From Escherichia phage vB_EcoM_ACG-C40, in sequence record NC_019399.1: 64,000 nt of DNA, one strand, 5' to 3'. Position numbers and translations under genes: made by a program. The notes under the pieces were generated by a model, which did no database searches, was not told the DNA's origin, and was given only the letters and a program-made list of their open reading frames with translations. This document shows positions 17,265 through 63,050 of the stretch, in pieces (the stretch's first letter is position 1; each line of letters begins with the position of its first letter).

Positions 17265-17272
17265 TTTGTGTT

Positions 17273-17324
17273 CCTCATGTTATGTCAGTAAGACTACTGT
17301 AACACAACACGAGGGACTTGTAAA
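17273..17324. repeat. 52-bp perfect repeat, copy 1 (second copy at 30980..31031)
   Basis: identical string cctcatgttatgtcagtaagactactgtaacacaacacgagggacttgtaaac at both loci. Confidence 0.85.
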
Positions 17325-17685
17325 CTACATTTTGAACTTTTTAGTACGCGTAATAGGCATGCGTCGATTTTATACTGTTTCATTGTTTGAAGAGCAGTAT
17401 CAAAAACAGCATTAATGACACCAATTGGATTTCCACCCAAGTTTTTAAGCTTAACTAATGATAGTTTCTCATTAACACCTATCATTACGATATGCATCAT
17501 TTTGTCGCCTGGTTTAACGTTTTATCTGTATCACCGCCAGAGGTGTATGTACAAAATCTAAATCCAGGAAGCACGCTTTCTTCGCCGGCTTGAATAGCAA
17601 AAATTTGTGGTATTTTATGCTTAGGATTTAAGTTAACAACCGGCGCCGAAGCGCCGTCAAATAATTATGTAATAAGTTCCATGAT
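17294..17685 (-). pseudogene. degenerate tandem partial copy of the alt 5' region
   Basis: - strand reads MELIT*LFDGASAPVVNLNPKHKIPQIF...FRFCTYTSGGDT then MMHIV...MKQYKIDACLLRVLKS, paralogous to Alt residues 1-120 but with stop at codon 6 and frame breaks. Confidence 0.7.
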
Positions 17686-19734: not shown

Positions 19735-19757
19735 CATATCCTCTCTAGTGTTTATTC

Positions 19758-23672: not shown

Positions 23673-23713
23673 AGTATTTTCCTCAGTAAGGGGCCGAAGC
23701 CCCTCATTTTATT

Positions 23714-24079: not shown

Positions 24080-24147
24080 TTTTATTCTCCGAGATGTTTA
24101 ATTGCGGTACAGGTATATAATATCATATCCTGTACCAAAGTAAACAA

Positions 24148-24504: not shown

Positions 24505-24540
24505 ATAATACTATCACAAAGGAACCATACTGTAAACAAC
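24505..24540 (-). promoter_or_regulatory. T4 early-type promoter (GTTTAC -35, TAGTAT -10)
   Basis: - strand GTTTACA-18nt-TAGTAT upstream of gene starting 24480. Confidence 0.5.
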
Positions 24541-24767: not shown

Positions 24768-25164
24768 TATAAATTCTCTTTTAAATGAAAATGCAGGACT
24801 TATTGGCATTGCCTGCGAAAGCCCTCAAGGGGGTACTTAGGTTTTGAGTATTTACCGACAGGATAACCATAAACCCGTCATCATACCTTATAGCTCTTAT
24901 CTGTTGCACACCGTTAGCTTAAAGGTTCCGGGTTCGATTTCTCGAGGATAAGATATATACTGATGGATATATAGGCCTTGAGGCGTACTCCCGATTGGCC
25001 ATCACCTCGGGGTAGCATGCACTTGCCGCTATAAGAATAACATTCAAGAGGTACACCGTAAAACTGCCGGGGTCTTAAAACTATAATGATTCGCAAATCA
25101 TTAATCAGACAGTTCGACGGCTCCTCGATTTTAGCTCACACTAAGGCAGTGAATCTCCAATAAA
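24768..25164. other. GC-rich, ORF-free structured island (candidate structured RNA or regulatory region)
   Basis: about 350 bp without a credible ORF on either strand in a tightly packed genome; long-range complementary pair CCTCAAGG (24823..24830) / CCTTGAGG (24976..24983) and several local GC stems. Confidence 0.4.
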
Positions 25165-27669: not shown

Positions 27670-27710
27670 GTAGAGCTATAATATCACAACTCTACCATAA
27701 AGTAAACTGT
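27670..27710 (-). promoter_or_regulatory. T4 early-type promoter (GTTTAC -35, TATTAT -10)
   Basis: - strand GTTTAC-18nt-TATTAT upstream of gene starting 27647. Confidence 0.5.
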
Positions 27711-28188: not shown

Positions 28189-29599
<1,411 letters not shown>

Positions 29600-30970: not shown

Positions 30971-30979
30971 CATAAAGTC

Positions 30980-31031
30980 CCTCATGTTATGTCAGTAAGA
31001 CTACTGTAACACAACACGAGGGACTTGTAAA
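30980..31031. repeat. 52-bp perfect repeat, copy 2 (first copy at 17273..17324)
   Basis: identical 52-nt string; - strand reads GTTTACAAGTCCCTCGTGTTGTGTTACAGTAGTCTTACTGACATAACATGAGG. Confidence 0.85.
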
Positions 31032-31035
31032 CAAC

Positions 31036-32650: not shown

Positions 32651-33829
32651 TTAAAAGTATTTTTTAAAACTCATCATAACTTTATCATCAACATCATTAT
32701 CAATCTGTGCAACAAGATAAGATGACAGTTCTACTTCTTGTGGCGCTGATTGAACATTATCAGAATTAAGATATTCACGAATCCAAGGATATGGATGTTT
32801 AACCGGAGCATCGGTAATTGGGCATGGAAGACCACACTGTTTCATACGAGATACAGTTAAGTAATCAATAAAGCTCCACATGCTATTTGTATTTAATCCA
32901 GGAACATCGCCATCTTTAAATAAATGAACTGCCCAATCTTTTTCTTGGCGGTTAACTTCCATGAAAATATCAACTGCTTCTTGTTCACACTCTTGAGCAA
33001 TTTTAACCCATTGATCGCCATCAGTACCAGATTGAAGTTGACGAATAATATATTGGGTGCCTTTAAGGTGAAGCTGTTCATCGCGTGCAATGAACTTCAT
33101 AATCTTGGCATTACCTTCCATGATTTCCATGTTCTTATGGAAGTTAAAGGTACATGCAAAAGATACATAAAAACGAATAGCTTCCAATGCGTTGATTACA
33201 TGCAAACAGAGGTAAAGAGATTTCATTAGCTCACGCTTCCAATATGTCTCATGCTCAATAGCATCTTCAATAACGTCTTCGTCTGCGTTAATTTCTTTTT
33301 GGTATTCGATATCAGCTTTAGCGTTTTCCCAATAACGAGTTTTAATCAGAACATCATCATAATAACGTCCAATGGATTCAGCACGTTTCATAATAGCTTC
33401 ATCTAATACAATTTCATCAAATACCTTCGATGGATCAGTATAAAGATTTCGCATGATATGAGTATATGAACGACTGTGAATAGTTTCACTAAAAGTCCAT
33501 GTAGCAGCCCATGTATCAAGACTTGGGTCTGAAATTAATGACATAAGTACAGCAGACGGCGCACGACCCTGAATGCTATCTAAAAGTGATTGATACTTCA
33601 GGTTGTTAGTAAAAATATTTTGCTGGTACTGAGGAAGCTTATTAAACTGTGCAGCATCCATCATCAAGTTTACTTCTTCAGGACGCCAGAAAAATGATAA
33701 TTGCTTTTCGGTTAAATCTTCAAAAACTTTATGACGTTGAATATCATAACGCGCAATACCAAGACCTGAACCAAAAAACATAGGTTCTTTTAAAACATCA
33801 ACTGGATTTGTATTAAAAACTGTGCTCAT
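32651..33829 (-). CDS. nrdB: ribonucleotide reductase small subunit NrdB (uninterrupted, no intron)
   Basis: 392-aa continuous ORF with R2 features and conserved C-terminal tail. Confidence 0.9.
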   Translation of the reverse strand: MSTVFNTNPVDVLKEPMFFGSGLGIARYDIQRHKVFEDLTEKQLSFFWRPEEVNLMMDAAQFNKLPQYQQNIFTNNLKYQSLLDSIQGRAPSAVLMSLISDPSLDTWAATWTFSETIHSRSYTHIMRNLYTDPSKVFDEIVLDEAIMKRAESIGRYYDDVLIKTRYWENAKADIEYQKEINADEDVIEDAIEHETYWKRELMKSLYLCLHVINALEAIRFYVSFACTFNFHKNMEIMEGNAKIMKFIARDEQLHLKGTQYIIRQLQSGTDGDQWVKIAQECEQEAVDIFMEVNRQEKDWAVHLFKDGDVPGLNTNSMWSFIDYLTVSRMKQCGLPCPITDAPVKHPYPWIREYLNSDNVQSAPQEVELSSYLVAQIDNDVDDKVMMSFKKYF

Positions 33830-33880
33830 AAATTTTCCGCTTAGTTAATAGTTGGTGACTCGTCCGTGAGTCAAATTATA

Positions 33881-36145
33881 TCATAATTTACAGGATGAAC
33901 AATCTTCAGCTTTTGGAGTTTCTATTTCATAATCATCAGTACCAGAACCATCGCGGGTATTATGATAATAGAAATTTTTTCCGCCAAAATACCAAAAATA
34001 CAAAAGGTCATCAATCATTATTGACATTGGAACCTTTCCTTTTGGAAAAATCTGCGGGTCATAATATGTATTCGCTGAAGCTGATTGACATACCCATTTC
34101 AGCATAATAGCTACCTGCGTAAGATAAGGTTTATTACCTTTCTTAGCTAATTTCCATGTATAATCATATAGGTCTATGTTATGCTCAATATTGGGCACGA
34201 CTTGATTAAAGGAGCCCTCTTTTGATTCTTTAACAGAGACTGGTCCACGTGGAGGCTCGATACCGTTTGTACTGTTAGAAACTTGGGAAGATGACTCACA
34301 TGGCATAAGTGCTGATAATGTGCTATTACGGATGCCAAAGAGCTTAAGGTCTTCCCGCAGCGCCGACCAGTCACAAACGTATTTTGGAGCTGCGATTTGG
34401 TCAATCTTTTTATTGTACCAGTCGATAGGTAATTCGCCTCGAGACCAACGAGTGTCTGAATAATATTCGCAAGGTCCTTTTTCTTTGGCGAGCTTAATGG
34501 ATGCTTTAATGAGTCCATACTGTAATCTCTCAAATAGTTCATGTGTTAAATCATTAGCATCTTCATAAGAAGCAAAGTTACTTGCCAGCCAAGCTGCATA
34601 GTTGGTAACACCTACACCGAGGTTACGACGCTTTTTAGCTTTTTCTGCTTCAGGAACTGGATATCCTTGGTAATCCAACAGATTATCAAGAGCACGAACT
34701 TGAACTTCTGCCAATTCATTAATTTTATCTTGGTCTTGCCAGTCAAAATTATCTAGTACGAATGCAGAGAGAGTACACAATCCAATTTCAGCATCAGGAC
34801 TATTCACATCATTTGTTGGAATAGCAATTTCACAGCACAAGTTACTCTGACGAATAGGCGCCTTTTCACGAATAAACGGAGTATAGTTATTCGTATTATC
34901 AATGAACTGCACATAAATCCTTGCGGTTCCTGAACGTTCAGTCATGAGCAATTCAAATAGTTCACGGGCTTTAATACGCTTTTTACGAATATTAGGGTCT
35001 TTTTCTGCTGCTTCGTATAATTCACGGAAACGGTTTTGGTCTTTAAAATAAGAATAATAAAGTTCGCCACCCATTTCATGCGGACTGAACAAAGTAATGT
35101 AATCATTCTTTCCGAATCGTTCCATCATTAGGTCATTCAGTTGAACGCCATAATCCATATGACGGATACGGTTTTCTTCTACGCCTTTGTTATTTTTCAA
35201 AACGAGAAGATTTTCAACTTCCAAATGCCAAATAGGATAATAAGCAGTAGCAGCGCCGCCACGAATTCCACCCTGTGAGCATGATTTAACTGCAGTCTGA
35301 AAATGTTTCCAAAAAGGAATAACACCAGTATGGCGTACTTCACCCATGCCAATCTTAGAACCTTCAGCACGAATCATACCAACGTTAATACCAATTCCAG
35401 CGCGTTTAGAGATATATTCAACAATTGAAGCGGAAGCCTTGTTGATAGACTTTAATGAATCACCTGCCTCAATAACAACACATGAACTAAACTGTCGAGT
35501 CGGAGTACGACAACCAGCCATAATAGGAGTTGGTAATGAAATCTGTCGAGTAGATACTGCTTCATAAAAACGGATAACGTGTTTTAATCTATCAACAGGT
35601 TCATCTTGATGCAATGCCATTCCAATAGTCATAAATGCAAACTGTGGAGTTTCATAAATTTGACCAGTGGTTTTATCTTTAACTAGATATTTTTCTTTTA
35701 ATTGCATCGCCCCGGAATAAGTAAATTCCATATCCCGTTCGTGCTTAATTTTTGATTCTAAAAATGTAATTTCTTCTGCTGAATATTTTGACAACAGTTC
35801 AGGGTCGTATTTACCTTCATTTACACAGTAAGAAATATGGTCAATAAATGAACGCGGTTCATACTGCCCATAAACATGCTTACGAAGAGCGAACATTAGA
35901 CAACGTGCAGCTACATATTGATAATCAGGCTCTTCAACCGAAATAGAATTCGCAGCGGCCTTAATGACAATAGTCTGAATATCATCAGTTGTCATTCCAT
36001 CACGGAGATAAGATTTAATATTTTCATATAATTCATAAGGATCTACTGATGTTCCCTCAGCTGCCCAAGATAAAACTTTAATAATTTTTTGTGGGTCAAA
36101 GCTCTGAGAAACACCACTACTTTTGATAACATTAATTAATTGCAT
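33881..36145 (-). CDS. nrdA: ribonucleotide reductase large subunit NrdA
   Basis: 754-aa ORF with ATP-cone N-terminus and class I RNR catalytic core. Confidence 0.9.
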   Translation of the reverse strand: MQLINVIKSSGVSQSFDPQKIIKVLSWAAEGTSVDPYELYENIKSYLRDGMTTDDIQTIVIKAAANSISVEEPDYQYVAARCLMFALRKHVYGQYEPRSFIDHISYCVNEGKYDPELLSKYSAEEITFLESKIKHERDMEFTYSGAMQLKEKYLVKDKTTGQIYETPQFAFMTIGMALHQDEPVDRLKHVIRFYEAVSTRQISLPTPIMAGCRTPTRQFSSCVVIEAGDSLKSINKASASIVEYISKRAGIGINVGMIRAEGSKIGMGEVRHTGVIPFWKHFQTAVKSCSQGGIRGGAATAYYPIWHLEVENLLVLKNNKGVEENRIRHMDYGVQLNDLMMERFGKNDYITLFSPHEMGGELYYSYFKDQNRFRELYEAAEKDPNIRKKRIKARELFELLMTERSGTARIYVQFIDNTNNYTPFIREKAPIRQSNLCCEIAIPTNDVNSPDAEIGLCTLSAFVLDNFDWQDQDKINELAEVQVRALDNLLDYQGYPVPEAEKAKKRRNLGVGVTNYAAWLASNFASYEDANDLTHELFERLQYGLIKASIKLAKEKGPCEYYSDTRWSRGELPIDWYNKKIDQIAAPKYVCDWSALREDLKLFGIRNSTLSALMPCESSSQVSNSTNGIEPPRGPVSVKESKEGSFNQVVPNIEHNIDLYDYTWKLAKKGNKPYLTQVAIMLKWVCQSASANTYYDPQIFPKGKVPMSIMIDDLLYFWYFGGKNFYYHNTRDGSGTDDYEIETPKAEDCSSCKL

Positions 36146-37014: not shown

Positions 37015-38030
37015 CATTATGTTCAGATAAGGTCGTTAATCTTACCCCGGAATTATATCCAGCTGCATGTCACCATGCAGATCAGACTATATCTCCAACT
37101 TGTTAAAGCAAGTTGTCTATCGTTTCGAGTCACTTGACCCTACTCCCCAAAGGGATAGTCGTTAGGCATTTATGTAGAACCAATTCCATTTATCAGATTT
37201 TACACGATAAGTAACTAATCCAGACGAAATTTTAAAATGTCTAGCTGCATCTGCTGCACAATCAAAAATAACCCCATCACATGAAATCTTTTTAATATTA
37301 CTAGGCTTTTTACCTTTCATCTTTTCTGATATTTTAGATTTAGTTATGTCTGAATGCTTATGATTAAAGAATGAATTATTTTCACCTGAACGATTTCTGC
37401 ATTTACTACAAGTATAAGCAGAAGTTTGTATGCGAACACCGCACTTACAAAACTTATGGGTTTCTGGATTCCAACGCCCGTTTTTACTTCCGGGTTTACT
37501 GTAAAGAGCTTTCCGACCATCAGGTCCAAGTTTAAGCATCTTAGCTTTAACAGTTTCAGAACGTTTCTTAATAATTTCTTCTTTTAATGGATGCGTAGAA
37601 CATGTATCACCAAACGTTGCGTCAGCAATATTGTATCCATTAATTTTAGAATTAAGCTCTTTAATCCAAAAATTTTCTCGTTCAATAATCAAATCTTTCT
37701 CATATGGAATTTCTTCCAAAATAGAACATTCAAACACATTACCATGTTTGTTAAAAGACCTCTGAAGCTTTATAGAAGAATGGCATCCTTTTTCTAAATC
37801 TTTAAAATGCCTCTTCCATCTCTTTTCAAAATCTTTAGCACTTCCTACATATACTTTATTGTTTAAAGTATTTTTAATCTGATAAATTCCGCTTTTCATA
37901 AATACCTCTTTAAATATAGAAGTATTTATTAAAGGGCAGTCCTACAATTTAGCACGGGATTGTCTACTAGAGAGGTTCCCCGTTTAGATAGATTACAAGT
38001 ATAAGTCACCTTATACTCAGGCCTCAATTA
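37015..38030 (-). mobile_element. td group I self-splicing intron (1016 nt) carrying I-TevI
   Basis: 5' end TAATTGAGGCCTGAGTATAAGGTGACTTATAC... directly after exon-1 ...TTGGGT; 3' end ...CTGAACATAATG; matches the T4 td intron as recalled. Confidence 0.9.
37162..37899 (-). CDS. GIY-YIG homing endonuclease I-TevI (intron-encoded)
   Basis: 245-aa ORF MKSGIYQIKNTLNNKVYVGSAKDFEKRW..., zinc finger CxxC...CxxC, C-terminal HTH. Confidence 0.95.
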   Translation of the reverse strand: MKSGIYQIKNTLNNKVYVGSAKDFEKRWKRHFKDLEKGCHSSIKLQRSFNKHGNVFECSILEEIPYEKDLIIERENFWIKELNSKINGYNIADATFGDTCSTHPLKEEIIKKRSETVKAKMLKLGPDGRKALYSKPGSKNGRWNPETHKFCKCGVRIQTSAYTCSKCRNRSGENNSFFNHKHSDITKSKISEKMKGKKPSNIKKISCDGVIFDCAADAARHFKISSGLVTYRVKSDKWNWFYINA

Positions 38031-38578
38031 ACCCAAGAAAACATCTACTGATCGTTGATACCACTGCAAATCCAAATAGCCATTACGCACATTAAACTGA
38101 TAGAACATATGACAAGGCGGTAATGCCATCTGCTTGAGTTCAGCTGGATTCCATGCTGAAACAATTTGACGCCTATCATTTGGCAGTTTTTTAATACGAT
38201 CAATAACTTCTATAATTTGGTCTACACCACCAAAATCACGCCACTGTTTTCCATAAATTGGACCAAGTTCACCGCTATGGTATCCTAAATCTTTTGCTTG
38301 ATTTTCGTAATTTTCATCCCAAACTGTTTTGCCTTGGATTAACGAATCATGTTGAATTAATCGCAAATCATTGACATTTGTGCTTCCCGATAAAAACCAA
38401 AGCAGCTCAGCAATGCAAGCTTTCCAGGCGAGCTTCTTAGTTGTTACTGCAGGAAAACCTTTAGTTAAATCCCAGCGTAATTTAGTACCGAACAAAGCAA
38501 TTGTTCCTGTGCCTGTTCGGTCATCGGTTTCGTAGCCATTTTCCAGGATATCTTTAATTAAAAATTGGTATTGTTTCA

Positions 38579-38579
<1 letters not shown>
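38031..38579 (-). CDS. td: thymidylate synthase, exon 1 (residues 1-183)
   Basis: starts MKQYQFLIKDILENGYETDDRTGTGT; ends ...QRSVDVFLG at the 5' splice site. Confidence 0.9.
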
Positions 38580-39608
<1,029 letters not shown>

Positions 39609-39618
39609 ATTATTTTCC

Positions 39619-39861
39619 TTAAACAGACTTTTTCACAATTTTCCAATCAGCTTTAAACTGCTCGACGTCAGAATGGTAAATCCAAAATCCTGCGCTTTCT
39701 CCGTCTTCATAAAGAGGACATCCATCACATTCATCTTCCCATCCCATGTCACGTAAAAGATGTTCAGCTTTTTCAACAAGTTCAGAATCTTTACCGATGA
39801 TATTAAAATACCATTTACCTCTAACTTCCGAATCTTTAATGCTCTGACGTTGTAATCTCAT
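39619..39861 (-). CDS. hypothetical protein (80 aa)
   Basis: ORF track. Confidence 0.55.
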   Translation of the reverse strand: MRLQRQSIKDSEVRGKWYFNIIGKDSELVEKAEHLLRDMGWEDECDGCPLYEDGESAGFWIYHSDVEQFKADWKIVKKSV

Positions 39862-39964
39862 TTTATTCTCCTTAGCAAGCTTTAATCAAAAGATATAAAC
39901 AAACCAACATAACTGCTGCCATAATATAAGGTGCTAACATTTTCTTTTCTCCATTAGTTTTGAT

Positions 39965-40005
39965 AGGGTAATAGTATCACACTACTACCCTGCTGTAAAC
40001 TACTT
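39965..40005 (-). promoter_or_regulatory. T4 early-type promoter (GTTTACA -35, TACTAT -10)
   Basis: - strand GTTTACAgcagggtagtagtgtgaTACTAT; member of a repeated family. Confidence 0.5.
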
Positions 40006-40401
40006 TTTGAAAGTTTTTCGCAAAAGTTCAATGATTTCATCTACATTGTTTTCGTCAACAATGCAGTGAATTTTTGTTACGCCAGAAACCTTGTCTTTGA
40101 CTTCATCTTCTTCAGAAGTTGGTTCTTTATATTCGCGGAAACAATAAAACTCTTCTTCACTAAGTTCAAAATAATCATCACCCATACCATCATCATTATA
40201 GATTTCACCATTAGCACAAATGATTTCGGTTACATAATCAAAGCCATCTAAACTTGATATTGATTTAACTTCAAACCAACCGCCATTTTCTTGAATGATG
40301 CCGACCATACTAGCATTTGATGAACTAATATCAATGAAAGATTTAATACGGTGTGGATTTAACTCGTATTTTTTGCCGATTTCCATTTTGATTTTCCTCA
40401 T
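40000..40401 (-). CDS. hypothetical acidic protein (133 aa)
   Basis: ORF track. Confidence 0.55.
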   Translation of the reverse strand: MRKIKMEIGKKYELNPHRIKSFIDISSSNASMVGIIQENGGWFEVKSISSLDGFDYVTEIICANGEIYNDDGMGDDYFELSEEEFYCFREYKEPTSEEDEVKDKVSGVTKIHCIVDENNVDEIIELLRKTFKK

Positions 40402-40431
40402 TTTAATAGGGGCTTAATAGCCCCTTGATAA

Positions 40432-40659
40432 TTATTGTTCAATCATTCCCATGTAAAATTCTGTGTCTTCAGCATCCATACCATCACAATATTCATTAGC
40501 CATAAAGCGGGTGAGGTCTTCAAGAGGACCTTCAATAACGATTTGAATACTCCAAAACTTAGAATCTTGCACGCTTGTGATACTAAGTTCAGGATAACGA
40601 TTACGAATAATTTCTTCAATATATTCAAAATCAACGATGTCAATATCAACTTTAGCCAT
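40432..40659 (-). CDS. hypothetical protein (75 aa from MAKVDIDIV...)
   Basis: track ORF 40432..40785 trimmed to the Met downstream of the promoter. Confidence 0.5.
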
Positions 40660-40697
40660 ATTATTTTCCTCTTTAATTATCAGCAGTATTGCCGATA

Positions 40698-40735
40698 GTT
40701 GTATAGTACCATGGAAGGACAAGGATGTAAACAGT
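40698..40735 (-). promoter_or_regulatory. T4 early-type promoter (GTTTACA -35, TACTAT -10)
   Basis: same gatag...gtaaac repeat family as 39965, 58268, 61406, 61922. Confidence 0.5.
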
Positions 40736-40754
40736 TTTGTGAAAAAATTTTTGA

Positions 40755-40787
40755 AATAAAAAAAAGGGACCTCTAGGGTCCCCAATT
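40755..40787 (-). terminator. rho-independent terminator downstream of gene 32
   Basis: - strand ggggaccc-taga-gggtcccc followed by TTTTTTTT. Confidence 0.7.
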
Positions 40788-40805
40788 AATTAGTAATATA
40801 ATCTG

Positions 40806-41711
40806 TTAAAGGTCATTCAAAAGGTCATCTAGGTCCGTGTCATCAGCACTAGATGAACTGCCAGAGCTTGAGCTCATAAAATCATCTTCAGTTTTTGTTT
40901 TGAAGTCATCAACATTGAATGCATCCAAATCATCAGCAACTTTATCAGCTTTCTTAGCGGCAGTTGCAGCGGCACCACCCATTGCAGCAGTTCCCATAAC
41001 TTGACTGAACTTAGTGCTCAGTTCTTCAAATGATTTGAATTTATCTTTAGAAGTCATTTCAGAAAGGTCAACCATTTGTTCGAACAGTTCTTTCTGGAAA
41101 GATTCATCGTCAATGTTTGGAATCGCAGATTGATTCAGGAATTTAGATTCGTCGTAGTTACTAAATCCAGAAACCTGTTTAACTTTCAGTACAAAGTTAG
41201 CACCTTCCCACGGACAAGTTACATCAACCGGAGTTTCACCCATTTCAACATCAACTGCAATCATTGCATTGATTTTATCCCAGATTTTCTTACCGAAACG
41301 ATATTTAAATACTTTACCTTCGTTTTCTGGAGCAGCTGGGTCTTTTACAACAAGAATATTAGCCCAGTAAGAAGTTTTACGTTTAACAAGACTGTACTCT
41401 TTATTGTCAGTGTTGTACAGATCATTTTTACTGATGTACTGACATACTGGACAAGAATCGTAATCACCATGGGTAGATGAACATGTTTCAATATACCATT
41501 TACCATTTTTCTTGAAACCGTGATTTACAAGAATTGCGAATGGTGCTTGTTCATCATTTTTAGACGGAAGAAAACGAATTACTGCTTGACCGTTACCCGC
41601 ATTATCGAGTTTCAGTTTCCACTCGCCTTTATCTTCAGAAGAAAAACCTTTATTGCCATTCAGTTTAGCCATTTGTGCAGCAAGTTCAGCAGTAGATTTA
41701 CGTTTAAACAT
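40806..41711 (-). CDS. 32: single-stranded DNA-binding protein gp32
   Basis: 301-aa [22 protein letters not shown]..., zinc site and acidic C-terminus, recognised. Confidence 0.95.
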
Positions 41712-41770
41712 TTTATTTCCTTTTTAATTTAATTTAATTTAATTAACAGTTGGTGCTATGACACTTTACC
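41712..41770 (-). promoter_or_regulatory. gene 32 translational operator (autoregulatory 5' leader)
   Basis: - strand leader GTGTCATAGCACCAACTGTTAATTAAATTAAATTAAATTAAAAAGGAAATAAA-ATG: pseudoknot-forming segment followed by repeated UUAAA tract. Confidence 0.7.
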
Positions 41771-42403
41771 TCATAGCTGGCATAATTCGCAATACTCTGG
41801 GTCTTCGAGAGGTATCCAACCTGAGTTGAAATACTTTACCATCGATTTAGCAGTTGTATCAGTTATATTTATATTACCTTTAACTCTTCGCCATCCGGGA
41901 GTTTTACCGTACAGATTAGAGGATAATAATAACACATAATTCTCGTAAGCAATATGAGATAATTTCCAAGACTCTATATTAGCTCGTGATGTTTTCCAAG
42001 GTCTAAAATCGTCACGGTTCATATAATTAGCCAATCTCATATGCTCTCTAACTTCCGGGTCTTTGGCTGGATGAGTTTCACCACTCACACCAAATCCACC
42101 ACCAGCATATACCAGATTAAAATAGTCTGGATTATCTCTGGCATTTACTTCAAGTTGGTATTTTCGTTCTGCTTCAATAACATCCAAGTCATCATCAATT
42201 TGAATTATTTTAACGCTCGGTTTTTGAAGCATTAGCGCATTCAAAAATCTTTTTTGTTTACATGAGCTCCAGTATTCCTTTCCGGAAGAGTCATATATTA
42301 TTCCGTTCTCAAATGAGCAATTTAATTTACTACCGATATAGTAGTATGGCGGAGTCTTATTTTTGACACGGTCTTCAAATGTAAACCAATATACTATATT
42401 CAT
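41771..42403 (-). CDS. segG: GIY-YIG homing endonuclease, SegG-like
   Basis: 210-aa ORF with IVYWFT...YYIGSK motif, located between genes 32 and 59. Confidence 0.65.
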   Translation of the reverse strand: MNIVYWFTFEDRVKNKTPPYYYIGSKLNCSFENGIIYDSSGKEYWSSCKQKRFLNALMLQKPSVKIIQIDDDLDVIEAERKYQLEVNARDNPDYFNLVYAGGGFGVSGETHPAKDPEVREHMRLANYMNRDDFRPWKTSRANIESWKLSHIAYENYVLLLSSNLYGKTPGWRRVKGNINITDTTAKSMVKYFNSGWIPLEDPEYCELCQL

Positions 42404-44566: not shown

Positions 44567-44628
44567 ATGAACCTCGTTCAATTAGTGAGATTTCTATTAT
44601 ATACTATCTAAATCTTAAAGTAAACAGG

Positions 44629-44636
44629 TATAAATA
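44629..44636 (+). promoter_or_regulatory. late promoter TATAAATA for gene 34 (T4 oriG is placed near here)
   Basis: exact TATAAATA 35 nt upstream of gene 34 ATG. Confidence 0.65.
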
Positions 44637-50385: not shown

Positions 50386-53300
50386 ATGGCTACTTTAAAA
50401 CAAATACAATTTAAAAGAAGCAAAACTGCAGGTCAACGTCCTGCTGCTTCAGTATTAGCCGAAGGTGAATTGGCTATAAACTTAAAAGATAAAACAATTT
50501 TCACAAAAGATGACTCAGGTAGTGTTATAGAATTAGGTTTAAAATATGGAGGAACTATAAATGGGTCTTTAGAGGTTACAGAAAATATAACTGGAACTTT
50601 AATTGGAAATTCTAGCACAGCTACTAAATTGCAAACACCTAGGAAAATTAATGGTATATCTTTTGATGGGTCAAAGGACATTACCTTAACTCCATCTGAC
50701 ATAAATGTCAATAGCACAACATTTATAAAAAATAATGGCGAATTACCTACTGATGCTAATTTAGATACGTATGGGCCCATTGAAGAATATCTTGGTGTTT
50801 GGTCGAAATCTACTTCAACAAATGCGCAACCAGCAAATAAATTCCCAGAAGAAAATGCCGTAGGTGTACTAGAAGTATTTGTGGCCGGCCAATTTGCTGG
50901 CACTCAGCGTTATACTGTAAGATCTGGTAACGTCTATATTCGTTCCTTATCTGCTAAATGGAATGGCGTCGATGGTCCATGGGGTGTGTGGCGTAATGTT
51001 CAAGCGTCAACTCGTCCACTTTCACAAACGATTGACCTTGATAGCTTGGGAGAATTAGAACATTGTGGCTTATGGAGAAACAGTTCAAGCGCAATCGCAT
51101 CATTTGATCGCCATTATCCAGAAGAAGGATCAGCCGCACAAGGATTTTTAGAAATATTTGAAGGTGGTTTATACACAAGAACGCAGCGTTATACTACCCG
51201 CATGGGTATGGTTTATACTCGTTGTCTCGCTGCTGCATGGGATGCTAGTGCACCTAAGTGGGAGGAATGGAAGCAGGTTGGTCATGGCACACCAGCGACT
51301 TTCTATGATGGAGATCTGAATGATTTTAAAACTCCTGGGTTATATAACATTTTAGGCACTGATGCCGTTATTAACTGTCCTACTGGTGAAGGTTTACCAG
51401 CCGTTATTGTTGGTTTGCTGGAAGTTAAACAGCGTGCTTCTGGTGGTGCTATTTTCCAAAAATTTACTACTGCCGGAACGGGTGCAACTACTCGCGATCG
51501 TATTTTTGAGCGTGCATATACTGGTGGTGCGTGGGGTGCATGGAACGAAGTATATACATCTTATTCTCTTCCAATTACTTTGGGTATGGGTGGTATTAAA
51601 GCTCAATTAGCGGAGTTAGATTGGCAAACCTTTGATTTTGTTCCTGGTAGTATGTTTAGCGTTCCTTTGAACAAAATAAAGAACATGCCAGCAAATATGG
51701 ATTGGGGGACGATTGACGGAAACCTGGTTATGTTTTCCGTTGGTCCTAGTGAACACACTAGCACAGGGCGTACTGTTCAGGTTTGGCGCGGTACTGTATC
51801 CCAGACAAACTACCGTTATTTTGTCGTTCGTGTGTTCGGTAATTCTGGAAATAGAACTTGCACAGTCCGCCGTGTTGTTCTTGAAGATGGTCGCCACACA
51901 TGGACAGATCAACAAGATTTTAATGGTGCTGTTAACTTCGGTGCTCCTACCAATTTTAACTCTACTGTTAACCTTAATAACACTACCACATTTAAAACAG
52001 AAGTTAAATTCCGCTCATCTAATGCATTCCGTATGTATAGCGGAAAATTTGGTACAATTTTCCGTAATGATGGAGAGAGTCTTTATATTCTTTCCACCGA
52101 CGAAAATGATCAAGATGGAAACTTTAATACAAATAGACCTTTCCGTTATGAATTAAGAACTGGTGATGTTACTTTGGGTGGTACTAGTGGTGCTAACGTT
52201 TTAAAATTAAAACGCGATTCTCTCACCGCATTTTTTGGTGGTGATATTAATATAAAAGGCTTGATGACTTTTGATGCCGGACGTTTAGGATCACGAGATT
52301 ATTTTAAATTTAACCATTGGGGTGATAGTAATAATGCGCGCGATAACATTATTCAGTTAGAAGACAGCAAAGGCGTTCATTTTTCCACTGAACGTACTTT
52401 AGCGACTGGTGCAATTAAAACTCGTTTCTTTGGCGAAACATTCACTGATGGTACATTATACCTAAATCAGATGAATAATAGCTCTGAACGATTCCATATC
52501 AATAATTGGGGAAATTCAGAAGTTGGTCGCGCGGCAGTGATGGAAATCGGTGATTCCAAAGGTTATCACTTCTATACTGAACGCAGGACAGATAACAGTT
52601 TGGCGTTTGATGTTGCTGGCGCTTTTACTGTGCATGGACCTAACGGAATAACCATCAAAAACTCAGCGGGTGCACGCCATATCTGGTTTAAAGATGATAG
52701 CGATACAGAAAAGGCTGTTATTTGGGCGACCGATGATGGCATGTTACATATACGAAATAATAACGAGGGTTCATTTAGTCATCACTTCCAGGGCGCAATG
52801 ATTAGACTGGAAGGGCGTGTTCCTTATGGTGCAGCAAAGGGGCTTCTCCGTGGTGAAGTTGATGGTGGTGCATATGTTGCATGGAGAGACCGCCCTGCTG
52901 GTTTGTTGGTTGACTGCCAGAAAAGTATTGACAGTGCTCATGCTGTTTGGAAAGCGGTTGATTGGGGGCGTCAATATATCGCTGCGATGGACGTTCATTG
53001 TCCGGGTGATGGTAATAATACCGCAGCCGCTGTTCTTCATGTTCAGGCTGCTGATTATCAATTCCACGCAAGCGGAGAATTTCATGCCACTGGTAACGGA
53101 AACTTTAACGATGTGTATATTCGTTCTGATCGTCGTCTTAAAGACAATATAGAAGATTATACCGGAAATGCGTTAAGTTTGATTGGTAAGCTGAAAGTGA
53201 AAACTTACGATAAAGTTAAATCTCTTAAGGACCGTGAAATTATCGGTCATGAGATTGGCATTATCGCACAGGATTTACAAGAAATATTACCGGAAGCTGT

Positions 53301-53478
53301 GAAATCTTCAAAAGTTGGCAATCTTGATAATCCAGACGATGTTCTGACAATTTCTAACTCGGCAGTGAATGCTCTTTTAATTAAGGCTATTCAGGAAATG
53401 AGTGAAGAAATTAAAGAATTGAAAACTCCTTTCTTTACTAAAATTGCTCGCAAAATTAGTAAATATTTTAAATTCTAA
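50386..53478 (+). CDS. 37: long tail fibre distal subunit gp37 with C-terminal chaperone-like domain
   Basis: 1030-aa ORF; C-terminus ...[12 protein letters not shown]...IAQDLQEIL... resembles intramolecular chaperone/autoprocessing domains. Confidence 0.85.
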
Positions 53479-53482
53479 CAAC

Positions 53483-53502
53483 AAGGGGGAAATGCCCCCT
53501 TT
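53483..53502 (+). terminator. hairpin after gene 37
   Basis: aaggggg-aaat-gcccccttt. Confidence 0.5.
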
Positions 53503-53514
53503 GGAGTATAAATT

Positions 53515-54315
53515 ATGGCAGTAGTTGGTGTTCCTGGTTGGATTGGAAGTTCAGCCGCAAATGAAACAGGACAGCGCTGGATGAGTCAAGCGGCTGGTCA
53601 ATTAAGATTGGGTGTTCCTTGCTGGATGAGTCAATTTGCAGGTCGCTCACGAGAAATTATTCACACGCTTGGAGCAGACCATAACTTCAATGGTCAATGG
53701 TTCCGAGATAGATGTTTTGAGGCAGGTAGTGCACCTATAGTATTTAATATTACAGGTGATTTAGTATCATATTCTAAAGATGTACCGCTTTTCTTTATGT
53801 ATGGTGACACTCCTAACGAATACGTTGTCCTTAATATTCATGGTGGTGTCCATATGTGGGGTCGAGGTGGTAATGGTGGATACACTCACTCAGGTGGAGA
53901 TGGTAACGGTACACAAGGCGGTCATGTTATTCAAAATGATATCGGTGGACGGCTTCGTATTTGGAACTACGGTGTTATAGCTGCTGGCGGTGGTGGCGGT
54001 GGTGGTATTGCATATCGTCCACACTCAGGGGCAAACTGGCAAGATATCGGTGGCGGTGGCGGTCGACCTTTCGGTGGTGCAGGTGGTGGTGGTTATTCCG
54101 GTGGCGCTGCTTCTTATGAAGGTCCGGGTGGTGGTTATGACTATGGTAACGCACACTCCGGCGCAGGTGGTAATGCTGGTGCTGCTGGTCAGAATGCATG
54201 GTCTGACGGCGGTAAAGTTCTTAAAGTTGGTGTTGGTGGTGCGTCTGGTCATGCAGTGTTTGGGTCTTCTCCAACTTGGGGTGCTGTTGGAACAATTTAC
54301 GGACCAAGAGTATAA
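53515..54315 (+). CDS. 38: tail fibre adhesin gp38, T2/T6-type with glycine-rich motifs
   Basis: 266-aa ORF with multiple poly-Gly islands ([21 protein letters not shown]) separated by variable segments. Confidence 0.8.
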
Positions 54316-54345
54316 TTTGAATAAATATCCTTAAAAGGAGGGTCT

Positions 54346-55299: not shown

Positions 55300-55340
55300 C
55301 TTTGTTATAATATCATCAGACGCTTGATTTGTAAACTGGT
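55300..55340 (-). promoter_or_regulatory. T4 early-type promoter upstream of asiA
   Basis: - strand GTTTAC-17nt-TATTAT. Confidence 0.5.
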
Positions 55341-56297: not shown

Positions 56298-56764
56298 TAG
56301 TAAAGGTCCTCAGAGTAAAGTTCTTTTTCACTACCACCACGTTCAATACGCACTTGTCCAGCGTAAGTTGCAATAATCATTGCTTCTTCACGTGTCCAGT
56401 AATTGCTATACTGGTCAATAAATCCTTGGTCTTCACCACAAACATGGTCTGATACAAGTTTATCACTTACCTGGTCAAGAACTTCAGCCATATCTTTAGA
56501 ATAATGACGAGCACCAGGAATAACCAGAGTCCCACCATCTTTTAACTTAAAGCGGTTGGCTGCACACACAATTCGACGTTGATATTTTTCATTATTGTTC
56601 CAATGAGCTACTTGCCAACAGATTTCAGGAACCTCTTCTAAAACATCCTCTTCCGTATATTCGGTGTAGTCGCCATAGGCCTGTAATTTAGCTGCTAGAC
56701 TTTCTGGAGTTTCACGTAATAAAGCCAGGTCTAATAATTCAAGACGCTCTTTGAAGGTTTTCAT
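56297..56764 (-). CDS. hypothetical protein (155 aa)
   Basis: ORF track; ATGA-type coupling with downstream ORF. Confidence 0.55.
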
Positions 56765-56912
56765 TTGGTTTCCTCAACACTTTTAATTTTTATAGCTTGT
56801 TTAGAACTTTCAAAGCATTGACAATATACTCTTACCGCATCAAACTGGTTGGCCGCTTTAAGATGGACTACACCTTCGCCGTTATAAAATTCTACGACAA
56901 TTTTAAATGTTT

Positions 56913-57888: not shown

Positions 57889-57919
57889 TTTAATCTCCGT
57901 TTCAGTTCATTTATTTGAT

Positions 57920-57960
57920 AGGTCTATAGTATCATGTTTAAAGCAGAAGTAAACACTTTT
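57920..57960 (-). promoter_or_regulatory. T4 early-type promoter upstream of motA
   Basis: - strand GTTTAC-17nt-TACTAT. Confidence 0.5.
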
Positions 57961-57993
57961 TTGCACTCTTTTTCAAGAGCTCTAATAAAGTAC

Positions 57994-58221
57994 TTACTTA
58001 ATGTTCAGATTACGAACTTCGATTTCGTCTTCATGGGCAAAATCAAACTGTTTGAATTCTGTGTCACCTTTAAATTTAAAAATCATTGTGAAGAAAGTCA
58101 GAACACCAGGTTTTTCTTCACGAACTCCACAGATATCATATTCAATACCATCTACAACCAGTTTGTTAGCAGTCAGAGCATTTTTAGCTTTAACGATTTC
58201 GTTTTCGATTTTAAATTTCAT
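57994..58221 (-). CDS. hypothetical protein (75 aa)
   Basis: ORF track. Confidence 0.5.
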   Translation of the reverse strand: MKFKIENEIVKAKNALTANKLVVDGIEYDICGVREEKPGVLTFFTMIFKFKGDTEFKQFDFAHEDEIEVRNLNIK

Positions 58222-58267
58222 TTTTTGTATCTCCGGGTTGTTTGTTTCAGTTCATTTATTTGATAGT

Positions 58268-58302
58268 TGTATAGTACCACAGTATGCTTTGGTTGTAAAC
58301 CG
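58268..58302 (-). promoter_or_regulatory. T4 early-type promoter
   Basis: - strand GTTTACA-18nt-TACTAT upstream of ORF starting 58221. Confidence 0.5.
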
Positions 58303-58325: not shown

Positions 58326-58351
58326 AAAAAAGGGAGAGCCGAGGCTCTCCC
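58326..58351 (-). terminator. rho-independent terminator
   Basis: - strand agggagagcc-tcg-gctctccc + TTTTTTATTTC. Confidence 0.65.
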
Positions 58352-58356
58352 TAAAA

Positions 58357-61405: not shown

Positions 61406-61441
61406 GGTAATAGTACCACGGAAGAACAGTCTTGTAAACAA
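61406..61441 (-). promoter_or_regulatory. T4 early-type promoter
   Basis: - strand GTTTACA-18nt-TACTAT. Confidence 0.5.
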
Positions 61442-61624: not shown

Positions 61625-61987
61625 TCATAGTTCAATCTCAACGATTTTCATTTCATTACTATTAATAGCCTCTTTAAGACTATCTGAAAGAATTACATTC
61701 CAGTGGTCATTCATATGACCATTAACTAAGCGTGTAATTTCTTCAGGAGTTGAAAAATAAGGCTGATCGGACTCCCAATGCGATAATCCTAAGCGAGTAT
61801 AAATCATGCCTTCATCATCGCTAGAATATTCAACTGACACAAACTCATCAGTTATTTTATGCTTAGCATAATAAAATTTAAATTTCATTTTACTCTCCAA
61901 ATCCGTATCAGTTGATAGTTGTATAGTACCACGGTCCTTGTGGTATGTAAACCATTTTGTGAAATTTTTTAAATGGAAAGATACCAT
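61625..61987 (-). CDS. hypothetical protein (track ORF 120 aa; likely true start at internal Met, about 87 aa)
   Basis: ORF track; 5' portion of track ORF overlaps a promoter element. Confidence 0.5.
   Translation of the reverse strand: MVSFHLKNFTKWFTYHKDRGTIQLSTDTDLESKMKFKFYYAKHKITDEFVSVEYSSDDEGMIYTRLGLSHWESDQPYFSTPEEITRLVNGHMNDHWNVILSDSLKEAINSNEMKIVEIEL
61922..61955 (-). promoter_or_regulatory. T4 early-type promoter
   Basis: - strand TTTACA-18nt-TACTAT, same repeat family. Confidence 0.45.
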
Positions 61988-62526: not shown

Positions 62527-62788
62527 TTAGACTTTCCTTTTTACCACTGAGATAAGCGTTATATACTTTAAGAGTGCCGTAATAAATTCGGTCATTTTCA
62601 TCTAAAGACTCGCGGTCAAGTTCATCGAGCTCCTTTTTATCCATGACTATAACATCATTACAGTAAAGAAACCCAAGTTTTTCGTGACCAAACTCAAATT
62701 TATTACAGTACACAATATTAGCGTGATGATTTCCGTGCAGTTTAATCTCTTTTATGTCGGAATCACCGATATTCATACAATAAATCAT
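62459..62788 (-). CDS. hypothetical protein (109 aa)
   Basis: ORF track; overlaps denB start. Confidence 0.5.
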   Translation of the reverse strand: MIYCMNIGDSDIKEIKLHGNHHANIVYCNKFEFGHEKLGFLYCNDVIVMDKKELDELDRESLDENDRIYYGTLKVYNAYLSGKKESLNAENESGFTETISDSDIYPIEQ

Positions 62789-62805
62789 AATTTTTCCTTA
62801 AAAAC

Positions 62806-62830
62806 AAAAGGGCCGAAGCCCTTTATTTTA
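62806..62830. terminator. bidirectional hairpin terminator
   Basis: aaaagggcc-gaag-ccctttatttt. Confidence 0.55.
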
Positions 62831-63022: not shown

Positions 63023-63050
63023 AATTTTCCTTAGTTAAGGGCCGAAGCCC

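What the first reader, a model, noticed from the sequence alone, without database searches (positions are those of the whole stretch)
39965..40005. Family of about 40-bp repeated early-promoter units on the - strand
At least seven copies of a conserved unit occur (near 24505, 27670, 39965, 40698, 57920, 58268, 61406, 61922). On the + strand each reads ...gatag(g/t)...atagta...gtaaac..., which is GTTTAC(A)-17/18nt-TA(C/G)TAT on the - strand. Each lies just upstream of a - strand gene start, and they are long enough to act as substrates for recombination between early regions.
Basis: partly seen in the sequence, partly recalled or inferred. Interest (0 to 1): 0.25.

Follow-up and report, generated by a model that had tools for sequence, protein, structure and literature searches.

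The report
Phage T4-type early promoters
The repeated units are the well-known strong "early" promoters of a T4-like phage, which capture the host RNA polymerase right after infection; their side role as recombination joints for small gene cassettes is also already published, so the finding is real but ordinary.

Summary
All eight listed sites exist. GTTTAC-N16-19-TASTAT gives 7 hits, all on the minus strand, against 0.08 expected. A position weight matrix built from the copies finds 12 units plus one near-threshold 13th. All are on the minus strand, and each lies 27-49 nt upstream of a Shine-Dalgarno sequence and ATG. The real unit is about 65-75 bp: A/T-rich UP region, GTTTAC(A), spacer, TGn, TAnTAT and a CTATCAA start region. 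The window is a Tequatrovirus, about 94-97% identical to T4 map positions 105.8-168.9 kb. The units match the published T4 early promoter (Pe) consensus and lie at positions orthologous to T4 sites. Two of those T4 sites are named promoters whose start coordinates fit: Pe133295, and Pe148.6, which was mapped by primer extension. The recombination idea is also supported, but it is not new. It is the published PeSL (early promoter plus stem-loop) cassette model. Here a 345-bp gene cassette upstream of motA sits between two units. The same gene is unit-flanked at other loci in Salmonella and Klebsiella phages. The unit at 40000 is a 45-bp island of identity between mosaic flanks. However, only 2 of 14 structural differences from T4 touch a unit. 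Verdict: already known, low interest.

The parts
39971..40000 (-). Early promoter core (the flagged copy): GTTTAC-18-TACTAT with TGn. The extended unit runs about 39955-40030. Predicted +1 is A at 39964. It is followed by a 22-codon mini-ORF (ATG 39940) and then frd.1. The T4 orthologue has its -35 at 146143.
40703..40732 (-). Early promoter core GTTTAC-18-TACTAT upstream of frd.3 (ATG 40659). The gene 32 terminator hairpin GGGGACC...GGTCCCT plus a T-run lies immediately upstream, giving a PeSL-like layout. The T4 orthologue has its -35 at 146875.
17296..17325 (-). Early-type promoter GTTTAC-18-TACAGT upstream of the alt.-3 orthologue (ATG 17264). It is one of a near-identical pair with 31003-31032 and has an embedded hairpin that covers the Shine-Dalgarno sequence.
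   Evidence: (D8)
24117..24145 (-). Early promoter GTTTAC-17-TATTAT upstream of the 30.7 orthologue (ATG 24079). The T4 orthologue has its -35 at 129918.
24508..24537 (-). Early promoter GTTTAC-18-TAGTAT upstream of the 30.8 orthologue (ATG 24480). A terminator hairpin plus T-run lies immediately upstream. The T4 orthologue has its -35 at 130310.
27678..27707 (-). Early promoter GTTTAC-18-TATTAT upstream of the cd.2 orthologue (ATG 27647). It is the orthologue of T4 'early promoter Pe133295'.
31003..31032 (-). Early-type promoter GTTTAC-18-TACAGT upstream of alc (ATG 30973), the twin of 17296-17325. The T4 orthologue has its -35 at 136336.
44596..44625 (-). Near-threshold 13th copy, GTTTAC-18-TATAAT, 29 nt upstream of the rnh ATG (44566). 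It is 97% identical to the T4 site whose predicted +1 (150,727) equals the start of the primer-extension-mapped Pe148.6 transcription unit.
55307..55336 (-). Early promoter GTTTAC-18-TATTAT upstream of asiA (ATG 55275). The T4 orthologue has its -35 at 161211.
57926..57954 (-). Early promoter GTTTAC-17-TACTAT directly upstream of motA (ATG 57888). It is the second, downstream promoter of the cassette and is absent from T4. A small stem-loop (GCTCTTGAAAAAGAGT) lies just upstream.
58271..58300 (-). Early promoter GTTTAC-18-TACTAT. It is the orthologue of the T4 motA promoter (-35 at 163673), but here it drives a 75-aa ORF (ATG 58221). A strong terminator hairpin (58331-58352) lies immediately upstream.
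57955..58270 (-). Interior of the promoter-flanked cassette: leader, 75-aa ORF (57994-58221, phrog_10955) and stem-loop. It is bounded by a 36-nt, 92%-identical direct repeat (57899-57934 and 58244-58279). T4 lacks it. It is found in 166 phage records and at other loci in other genera.
   Evidence: (D13)
61410..61439 (-). Early promoter GTTTAC-18-TACTAT upstream of the ndd.4 orthologue (ATG 61381). The T4 orthologue has its -35 at 166807.
61923..61952 (-). Early promoter GTTTAC-18-TACTAT. The T4 orthologue has its -35 at 167086. Here an extra 87-aa ORF (61625-61888, phrog_2390) is inserted directly after the promoter's leader and Shine-Dalgarno sequence.

Best explanation
The units are early (Pe-class) promoters of a T4-like phage (genus Tequatrovirus).

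How they work. Immediately after DNA injection, unmodified host sigma-70 RNA polymerase binds them through four stacked elements. These are an A/T-rich UP element contacted by the alpha subunit C-terminal domains, a -35-like GTTTAC(A), an extended -10 TGn, and a -10 TAnTAT. Transcription starts about 7 nt after the -10, at the A of CTATCAA, and runs leftward on the minus strand into the early genes: alt.-3, 30.7, 30.8, cd.2, alc, frd.1, frd.3, rnh, asiA, motA and the ndd cluster. In T4 this class outcompetes host promoters, and some members are further stimulated when the injected Alt protein ADP-ribosylates Arg265 of the alpha subunit.

Secondary role. Because the units are the longest sequences repeated among early regions (17-53 nt exact runs), they also serve now and then as homology patches. 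Single-gene cassettes of the form promoter-leader-ORF-(stem-loop)-promoter are inserted, lost or swapped at these patches. This is the published PeSL model.

Shown here: motif statistics, strand and position, sequence orthology to T4, and mosaic joints at the units. Inferred: transcription initiation in this phage, the Alt effect, and the recombination mechanism.
For: Identity of the genome:
- The window is 98-99% identical to several Tequatrovirus genomes.
- It is colinear with T4 105,774-168,903 at mostly 94-97% identity.

Motif statistics and layout:
- 7 hits against 0.08 expected, and 10 against 0.28 expected, all on the minus strand.
- The weight-matrix census gives 12 sites above the shuffle threshold and none on the plus strand. 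A Shine-Dalgarno sequence and ATG follow 27-49 nt downstream of every one.
- The consensus is aAAaaatttcA.AaA.ttGTTTACa...tgTGaTAcTATA..ccTAtcaA. TGn is present in 12 of 13. No unit carries a correctly spaced MotA box or a TATAAATA late box.
- This matches the published description of T4 early promoters as UP/-35/TGn/-10 promoters with GTTTAC at -36 to -31 (PMC2988021; PMC1524935).

Orthology to T4:
- The same motif is found at the corresponding T4 positions for 12 of the 13 units. The 13th, at 57954, belongs to a cassette that T4 lacks.
- The T4 record names 'early promoter Pe133295' between cd.2 and cd.3. The motif there predicts +1 = 133295.
- The rnh site predicts +1 = 150,727. That is the start given for the Pe148.6 transcription unit, which is active 1 min after infection by primer extension (PMC6024815).
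- The T4 orthologues of the downstream genes are classed early at both RNA and protein level (PMC9697503 supplement).

Recombination:
- The 345-bp motA cassette lies between two units and is bounded by a 36-nt repeat.
- Its gene, phrog_10955, lies between nrdC.11 and nrdC.10 in Salmonella phage S16 and next to the tRNA genes in Klebsiella phage Metamorpho. In both it is again flanked by GTTTAC- or GTATAC-18-TAYTAT units.
- The unit at 40000 is a roughly 45-bp island conserved across seven phages, with three upstream and three downstream flank types in four combinations. In a Dhakavirus it sits at the motB/cef locus.
- Breakpoint edges against T4 fall in unit spans 3 times out of 28, against 0.6 expected (P = 0.02).
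- The PeSL papers give the T4/PST consensus as TTTACW-N17-TAYWAT and report experimental evidence for mini-circles in RB49 and phi1.
Against: - There are no transcription data for this phage. Promoter function rests on orthology and consensus.
- A generic sigma-70 scan scores these sites at only 9-10 of 12 matches. It finds as many promoter-like sites in the region as in shuffled sequence (35 against 37.6), so canonical hexamer matching alone would not single them out.
- The RNA-seq classification T4 genes early, so 'early' discriminates weakly.
- Only 2 of 14 structural junctions with T4 touch a unit. At event level P = 0.10-0.14.
- The other junctions involve a homing endonuclease gene (segD), the nrdB intron, nrdB.1 plus mobE, the tail-fibre region, or small-ORF inserts with alignment overlaps of only 5-19 nt at the junction.
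- A terminator-type stem-loop lies directly upstream of only 3-4 of the 12 units, and hairpin enrichment over random windows is not significant (P = 0.07).
- Similarity among the units could largely reflect shared selection for polymerase binding rather than common descent or exchange.
Confidence: 0.93

Rival explanations
1. The units are early promoters and nothing more. Their mutual similarity comes only from selection for tight polymerase binding. The indels seen next to a few of them are coincidental, because insertions land in intergenic DNA and that is where promoters are.
For: Only 2 of 14 junctions with T4 touch a unit, and event-level P is 0.10-0.14. Most small-ORF inserts lie at gene junctions that have no unit and show only 5-19 nt of alignment overlap. 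Exact shared runs between most unit pairs are 11-30 nt, which is short for homologous recombination.
Against: The spacer and leader are not needed for polymerase recognition, yet they are also shared. There are 23-53-nt exact runs, against a control maximum of 10. The spacer of the 40000 unit is conserved across seven phages, including at a different locus. The same accessory gene is flanked by two units at three unrelated loci in four genera, with the leader duplicated. Mini-circle formation between such units was reported experimentally in RB49 and phi1 (PMC2839356).
Confidence: 0.3
2. The units are T4 middle promoters, activated by MotA and AsiA through sigma appropriation, rather than early promoters.
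For: [quoted passage not shown] The unit at 57954 contains TGCTT in its spacer.
Against: Middle promoters replace the -35 element with a MotA box (TGCTTtA) centred at -30, 11-13 nt from the -10. All 13 units instead have GTTTAC at the -35 position, and none matches the MotA-box pattern. The five matches to that pattern in the window are elsewhere: 46907, 43768, 42233, 25953 and 9632. In 57954 the TGCTTTA is only 7 nt from the -10 (sequence). The units drive motA and asiA themselves, which must be expressed before middle transcription can begin.
Confidence: 0.02
3. The units are a dispersed non-coding mobile element, or chance matches in A/T-rich DNA, with no regulatory function.
For: The window is about 35% G+C, so loose A/T-rich hexamer patterns are common. 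The generic sigma-70 scan finds 35 promoter-like sites in one region, against 37.6 in shuffled sequence.
Against: 0 of 100 dinucleotide-preserving shuffles reach the observed counts. All copies are on one strand, at a fixed 27-49 nt from a Shine-Dalgarno sequence and ATG. The positions are orthologous in T4. No transposase or integrase gene is annotated next to the cassette in the loci examined.
Confidence: 0.01

Closest known systems
Bacteriophage T4 early promoters (Pe class; Liebig and Rueger 1989 and Wilkens and Rueger 1994/1996, recalled from memory or seen only as references; reviewed by Hinton 2010, PMC2988021)
   Same: The element set and geometry are the same: UP element, GTTTAC at -36 to -31, TGn, a -10 element and a conserved start region. 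So are the strand, the positions upstream of the same early genes, and the sequence orthology with T4 sites, including the named Pe133295 and Pe148.6.
   Different: Nothing of substance. This phage has one extra copy (57954), brought in with a cassette, and single-base differences from T4. One example is TACAGT here against TATAGT in T4 in the alc and alt.-3 copies.
PeSL (early promoter plus stem-loop) regulatory cassettes of T4-type phages (Arbiol et al. 2010, PMC2839356; Comeau et al. 2014, PMC4122927)
   Same: An early promoter with an A/T-rich upstream region, followed by a Shine-Dalgarno sequence and start codon, lies beside variable small ORFs. The consensus published for the T4/PST pair, TTTACW-N17-TAYWAT, fits 10 of the 13 units. 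The exceptions are 24537 (TAGTAT) and the 17325/31032 twins (TACAGT). The motA cassette has the promoter-ORF-stem-loop-promoter layout predicted by that model. The ndd region is the very region where that paper describes an exchange between T4 and PST.
   Different: Only 3-4 of the 12 units examined have a clear stem-loop directly upstream. Only 2 of 14 differences from T4 lie at units. Mini-circles were demonstrated for RB49 and phi1, not for T-even phages.
Strong sigma-70 phage promoters with UP elements (T7 A1, lambda PL, T5 promoters) and E. coli rrnB P1
   Same: They use the unmodified host holoenzyme and combine UP, -35 and -10 contacts for very high strength (PMC2988021).
   Different: The T4-type units have G at -36 and T instead of G at -33 (GTTTAC against TTGACA). 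They have an almost invariant TGn, a conserved start region, and in T4 a specific response of some members to Alt ADP-ribosylation.
Integron gene cassettes and lambdoid 'morons' (comparison made by Arbiol et al. 2010)
   Same: Single accessory genes move together with their own expression signals into defined intergenic positions.
   Different: No integrase or attC-type site is known here. Exchange is thought to use the general phage recombination machinery acting on the promoter homology itself (PMC2839356).

Membership tests
T4 early promoter (Pe) class | -35-region hexamer GTTTAC(A/T) at about -36 to -31 | tested here: met
   13 of 13 units have GTTTAC. Published consensus: PMC1524935.
T4 early promoter (Pe) class | -10 hexamer TAnnnT, 17-18 nt after GTTTAC (17 nt after TTTACW), preceded by the extended -10 TGn | tested here: met
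   The spacer is 18 nt in 11 units and 17 nt in 2. The -10 is TACTAT in 6, TATTAT in 3, TACAGT in 2, TAGTAT in 1 and TATAAT in 1. TGn is present in 12 of 13.
T4 early promoter (Pe) class | A/T-rich UP-element-like tract upstream of the -35 (about -40 to -60) | tested here: met
   The consensus is aAAaaatttcA.AaA upstream of GTTTAC. Information content there is lower than in the hexamers, and the tract is weak in a few copies (27707, 31032).
T4 early promoter (Pe) class | Located upstream of, and oriented towards, early genes | tested here: met
   All 13 are on the minus strand. A Shine-Dalgarno sequence and ATG follow 27-49 nt after the -10. Of the first downstream genes, 30.7, 30.8, cd.2, alc, frd.3, asiA, motA and ndd.4 are seen classed early in T4; the other first genes were not looked up.
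T4 early promoter (Pe) class | Orthology to experimentally mapped T4 early promoters | tested here: met
   Pe133295 corresponds to the T4 site orthologous to 27707. Pe148.6, with start 150,727, corresponds to the T4 site orthologous to 44625. For the other units only sequence orthology to T4 was shown. The published lists of mapped T4 early promoters were not available in the paper library.
T4 early promoter (Pe) class | Initiation by unmodified host sigma-70 holoenzyme immediately after infection, without phage protein synthesis; stimulation of some members by Alt | not testable with these tools
   This needs 5'-end mapping or in vitro transcription for this phage. An alt gene is present in the window (17686-19737).
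PeSL (early promoter plus stem-loop) cassette | A stable stem-loop (terminator or attenuator) physically associated with the promoter | tested here: inconclusive
   Clear hairpins followed by T-runs lie directly upstream of 24537, 40732 and 58300, and a small one lies upstream of 57954. The 17325/31032 pair has a stem-loop overlapping the spacer and the -10. The other units have none, and enrichment over random windows gives P = 0.07.
PeSL (early promoter plus stem-loop) cassette | Association with insertions, deletions or replacements of small ORFs between close relatives | tested here: met
   The motA cassette lies between two units. An ORF is inserted after the leader of 61952. The flanks of 40000 are mosaic. 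The same gene is unit-flanked at other loci in S16 and Metamorpho. But only 2 of 14 junctions with T4 touch a unit.
PeSL (early promoter plus stem-loop) cassette | Formation of excised mini-circles by recombination between neighbouring units | not testable with these tools
   Reported for RB49 and phi1 only (PMC2839356).
T4 middle promoter (MotA/AsiA-dependent) | MotA box (a/t)(a/t)TGCTTtA centred at -30, 11-13 nt from the -10, replacing the -35 element | tested here: not met
   None of the 13 units matches. The window's five matches to the pattern lie elsewhere.

The most novel reading that the evidence does not exclude
The most novel reading concerns the twin units at 17296-17325 and 31003-31032. 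There, a 50-nt hairpin runs from the promoter spacer to the Shine-Dalgarno sequence of alc and of the alt.-3 orthologue. The start site predicted for the promoter lies inside the 3' arm of the hairpin. So only RNA reading through from upstream could fold and hide the ribosome site, while RNA started at the local promoter would be translatable. The promoter would then also act as a switch that ties translation of alc and alt.-3 to local early initiation. The hairpin is unusually stable: -32.8 kcal/mol, z = -6.2. One of its base pairs changes from C-G to U-G to U-A between this phage and the two T4 copies. The principle is, from memory, known for other T4 genes (e, soc, 49, I-TevI) with late or middle promoters. 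I did not find it described for these two early units, but I did not search specifically for it.
Probability: 0.35. Interest if true: 0.3.

Novelty: already known. Interest (0 to 1): 0.07.

Why it matters
The finding matters mainly for annotation. The units mark the starts of the early transcription units of this T-even phage, and they explain why every early gene here lies on one strand. They also mark places where accessory genes are swapped between T4-like phages. This window gives a clean extra example: a phrog_10955 cassette that is promoter-flanked at three loci in four genera. That is useful for understanding and engineering the accessory gene content of therapeutic T4-like phages. It opens no new question, because both the promoter class and its proposed recombination role are in the literature.

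Tried and rejected
- Generic sigma-70 scan. It picks up several units at only 9-10 of 12 matches, and it finds no more promoter-like sites than in shuffled sequence. It cannot be used to support or reject the family; the family-specific pattern and weight matrix were needed.
- First weight-matrix iteration. It became contaminated with register-shifted duplicates. I redid it with non-maximum suppression.
- First hairpin enumeration. It tried only even lengths and missed the 19-nt gene 32 terminator. I redid it. The result is that stem-loops are not a general feature of the units.
- Promoter annotation in the T4 GenBank and RefSeq records. No promoter features are present. The only trace is a note that names Pe133295.
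- The T4 genome review (PMC150520), which lists the early promoters, is not held. No genome-wide T4 transcription-start dataset turned up.
- Middle-promoter, late-promoter and mobile-element or chance readings were rejected.
- Genome-wide breakpoint enrichment against T4 gave only a weak signal. I therefore do not claim that the units are the main driver of mosaicism here.
- Practical note: loci fetched in parallel, or several between two Python runs, were not exported to the sandbox, so the T4 pieces had to be fetched again one at a time.

Full report
WHAT THE WINDOW IS

The window is a piece of a T-even phage genome (genus Tequatrovirus). The stretch 38000-42000 is 98-99% identical to several Escherichia and Yersinia phages and matches 939 phage records. 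The whole window is colinear with phage T4 map positions 105,774-168,903, mostly at 94-97% identity. It runs from the end of gene 23 to rIIB. The late genes (24 to 54 and 34 to t) lie on the plus strand. The early and middle genes (alt through rnh, and asiA through rIIB) lie on the minus strand.

CHECK OF THE OBSERVATION

On the minus strand the flagged site reads GTTTAC AGCAGGGTAGTAGTGTGA TACTAT TACCCTATCAA, followed by GGAG and an ATG.

None of 100 dinucleotide-preserving shuffles reaches 7.
- With TANTAT as the -10 there are 10 hits against 0.28 expected, again all on the minus strand.
- A two-block weight matrix built from the copies, and iterated against thresholds taken from shuffled sequence, converges on 12 sites. 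All are on the minus strand and none is on the plus strand.
- A 13th site upstream of rnh (GTTTAC-18-TATAAT, 44596-44625) falls just below the threshold.
- In all 12, a Shine-Dalgarno sequence and an ATG follow 27-49 nt after the -10 hexamer.

Repeat families run 64-70 nt at 63-86% identity. The consensus is aAAaaatttcA.AaA.ttGTTTACa, then a spacer, then tgTGaTAcTATA..ccTAtcaA. The extended -10 dinucleotide TG is present in 12 of 13 units.

WHAT THE UNITS ARE

This is the textbook anatomy of T4 early promoters.

- Hinton's review describes them as 'uber' UP/-35/TGn/-10 promoters. They use unmodified host sigma-70 polymerase immediately after infection, and some are stimulated about twofold by the injected Alt ADP-ribosyltransferase (PMC2988021).
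- Nolan et al. place GTTTAC at -36 to -31 and note the A-rich tract at -40 to -44 (PMC1524935).
- The same pattern is found at the corresponding T4 positions. These lie upstream of 30.7, 30.8, cd.2, frd.1, frd.3, asiA, motA, ndd.4 and ndd.6, upstream of rnh, and upstream of alt.-3 and alc.

Two of these T4 sites are named promoters whose coordinates fit exactly:

- A note in the T4 record refers to 'the early promoter Pe133295 between cd.2 and cd.3'. The T4 motif there ends its -10 at 133302. That puts +1, seven bases further on, at 133295.
- The T4 rnh site is 97% identical to the window, and its -10 ends at 150,734. That predicts +1 at 150,727. This is the map unit Patterson-West et al. give for the start of the Pe148.6 transcription unit, which they confirmed by primer extension 1 min after infection (PMC6024815).

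The T4 orthologues of the genes directly downstream are classed early at RNA and protein level (PMC9697503 supplement). That classifier genes early, so this adds little.

None of the units has a MotA box at the spacing required for a middle promoter, and none has the late TATAAATA box. The promoter function in this particular phage is therefore inferred from close orthology. It was not measured here.

THE RECOMBINATION IDEA

This idea is also already in the literature. Arbiol et al. 2010 and Comeau et al. 2014 describe 'PeSL' cassettes: an early promoter plus a stem-loop, acting as linker sequences for modular shuffling of small ORFs in T4-type phages. They give TTTACW-N17-TAYWAT as the consensus for the T4/PST pair and report experimental evidence for excised mini-circles in RB49 and phi1.

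I tested the idea in three ways.

1. Individual loci.
- Upstream of motA, T4 has one promoter. The window has that same promoter (58300), then a 75-aa ORF, a small stem-loop, a second promoter (57954), and only then motA. The extra 345 bp are bounded by a 36-nt, 92%-identical direct repeat made of the -10 region and the leader.
- At 61952, an 87-aa ORF is inserted directly after the promoter's leader and Shine-Dalgarno sequence.
- At the flagged unit (40000), the core from -36 to about +8, including the spacer, is almost identical in the window, T4, RB51, CrRp10, a Hafnia phage, Sf22 and a Dhakavirus.
- The flanks of that core differ. There are three upstream types and three downstream types, found in four combinations. 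In the Dhakavirus the core sits at a different locus, between motB and cef.

2. Mobility of the cassette gene.
- The interior of the motA cassette occurs in 166 phage records, against about 940 that match the neighbouring conserved region. T4 lacks it.
- In Dhakavirus JS10 it is at the same place as in the window.
- In Salmonella phage S16 it lies between nrdC.11 and nrdC.10. There it has a hairpin, an UP tract and GTTTAC-18-TACTAT upstream, and a second GTTTAC-18-TACTAT downstream, with the leader duplicated.
- In Klebsiella phage Metamorpho it lies next to the tRNA genes, between GTTTAC-18-TACTAT and GTATAC-18-TATTAT.

3. A window-wide count.
- The window and T4 differ at 14 structural junctions, and only two of them touch a unit.
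- Breakpoint edges fall inside unit spans 3 times out of 28, against 0.6 expected (P = 0.02). Counted as events, the enrichment is not significant (P = 0.10, or 0.14 within the minus-strand gene blocks).
- The other junctions involve segD, the nrdB intron, nrdB.1 plus mobE, the tail-fibre tip and gp38, or small ORFs inserted at gene junctions. At those small-ORF junctions the flanking alignments overlap by only 5-19 nt on the T4 side.

The stem-loop half of the PeSL layout is clear for only 3-4 of the 12 units examined (24537, 40732, 58300, and weakly 57954). Hairpin enrichment over random windows is not significant (P = 0.07).

Exact runs shared between units are 17-53 nt, against a maximum of 10 nt in random controls.

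My reading is that the units are among the longest repeats in the early regions and do serve as occasional joints for cassette exchange. They are one route among several. Recombination between distant copies within one genome would remove essential genes, so it is unlikely to give viable products.

RIVALS

The middle-promoter, late-promoter, chance and mobile-element readings are rejected. The one live rival is that the recombination role is coincidental. I give that about 0.3, because spacers and leaders are shared as well as the polymerase-contact positions, and because the same gene is unit-flanked at three unrelated loci.

VERDICT

Both points are established knowledge for T4 and its relatives, so novelty is 'already known' and interest is low.

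The one item that may deserve a separate look is the twin promoter-plus-hairpin unit upstream of alc and alt.-3. It is described under 'novel case' and 'noticed in passing'.

Noticed in passing
window 17270-17328 and 30977-31035 (minus strand): A near-identical pair of units (53-nt exact run; GTTTAC-18-TACAGT) lies upstream of the alt.-3 orthologue and of alc. A hairpin of -32.8 kcal/mol (z = -6.2) pairs the promoter spacer with the Shine-Dalgarno GAGG. The predicted +1 lies inside the 3' arm, so only read-through RNA could hide the ribosome site. T4 has both copies. One base pair changes from C-G (window) to U-G (T4 alc copy) to U-A (T4 alt.-3 copy).
   Followed up: partly
window 39872-39940 (minus strand): A 22-codon hydrophobic mini-ORF (MLAPYIMAAVMLVCLYLLIKAC) with a strong Shine-Dalgarno sequence lies directly after the flagged promoter and before frd.1. 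It is present in T4 with one amino-acid change and is not annotated there. It is absent from RB51, CrRp10, Hafnia phage IsaacDaniel and Sf22, where the promoter leads straight into frd.1.
   Followed up: partly
window 57994-58221 (minus strand): A 75-aa accessory ORF (phrog_10955, function unknown) lies between two promoter units upstream of motA. T4 lacks it. It is present in 166 phage records and sits at other loci in Salmonella phage S16 and Klebsiella phage Metamorpho, each time between promoter units.
   Followed up: yes
window 61625-61888 (minus strand): An 87-aa ORF (phrog_2390, function unknown) is inserted, relative to T4, between the leader of the 61952 promoter and the ndd.6 orthologue. 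This is the region where a published T4/PST cassette exchange was described.
   Followed up: partly
window 44629-44636 (plus strand): A late-promoter box, TATAAATA, lies on the plus strand upstream of gene 34. It sits back-to-back with, and overlaps, the upstream A/T tract of the early rnh promoter on the minus strand. So one short intergenic region holds divergent early and late promoters.
   Followed up: no
window 748-809, 33153-33156, 33829-33885; 50540-54321: Relative to T4, the window lacks segD, the nrdB intron, and nrdB.1 plus mobE. A 245-aa ORF (37162-37899), placed like I-TevI, and a 210-aa ORF (41771-42403), placed like segG, lie in stretches that align with T4. The distal gp37 and gp38 region cannot be aligned with T4, and the ORF at the gp38 position is 266 aa (53515-54315) against 183 aa in T4. 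From memory, that size suggests the T2/T6 adhesin type.
   Followed up: no
window 3694-3716, 23685-23707, 62804-62826, 63033-63055: A family of short G+C-rich hairpins, (A/G)GGGCCGAAGCCC(C/T), flanked by T- or A-rich runs on both strands. They look like bidirectional intrinsic terminators reused at several gene ends.
   Followed up: no
window 7723-8402, 24884-25040, 29283-29597, 38580-38782, 39379-39586, 56724-56904, 62540-62736: Seven insertions or replacements of 155-678 bp relative to T4 lie at gene junctions that have no promoter unit. At four of them (7723-8402, 29283-29597, 38580-38782 and 62540-62736) the flanking alignments overlap by 5-19 nt on the T4 side, which suggests indels by short direct repeats.
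   Followed up: partly
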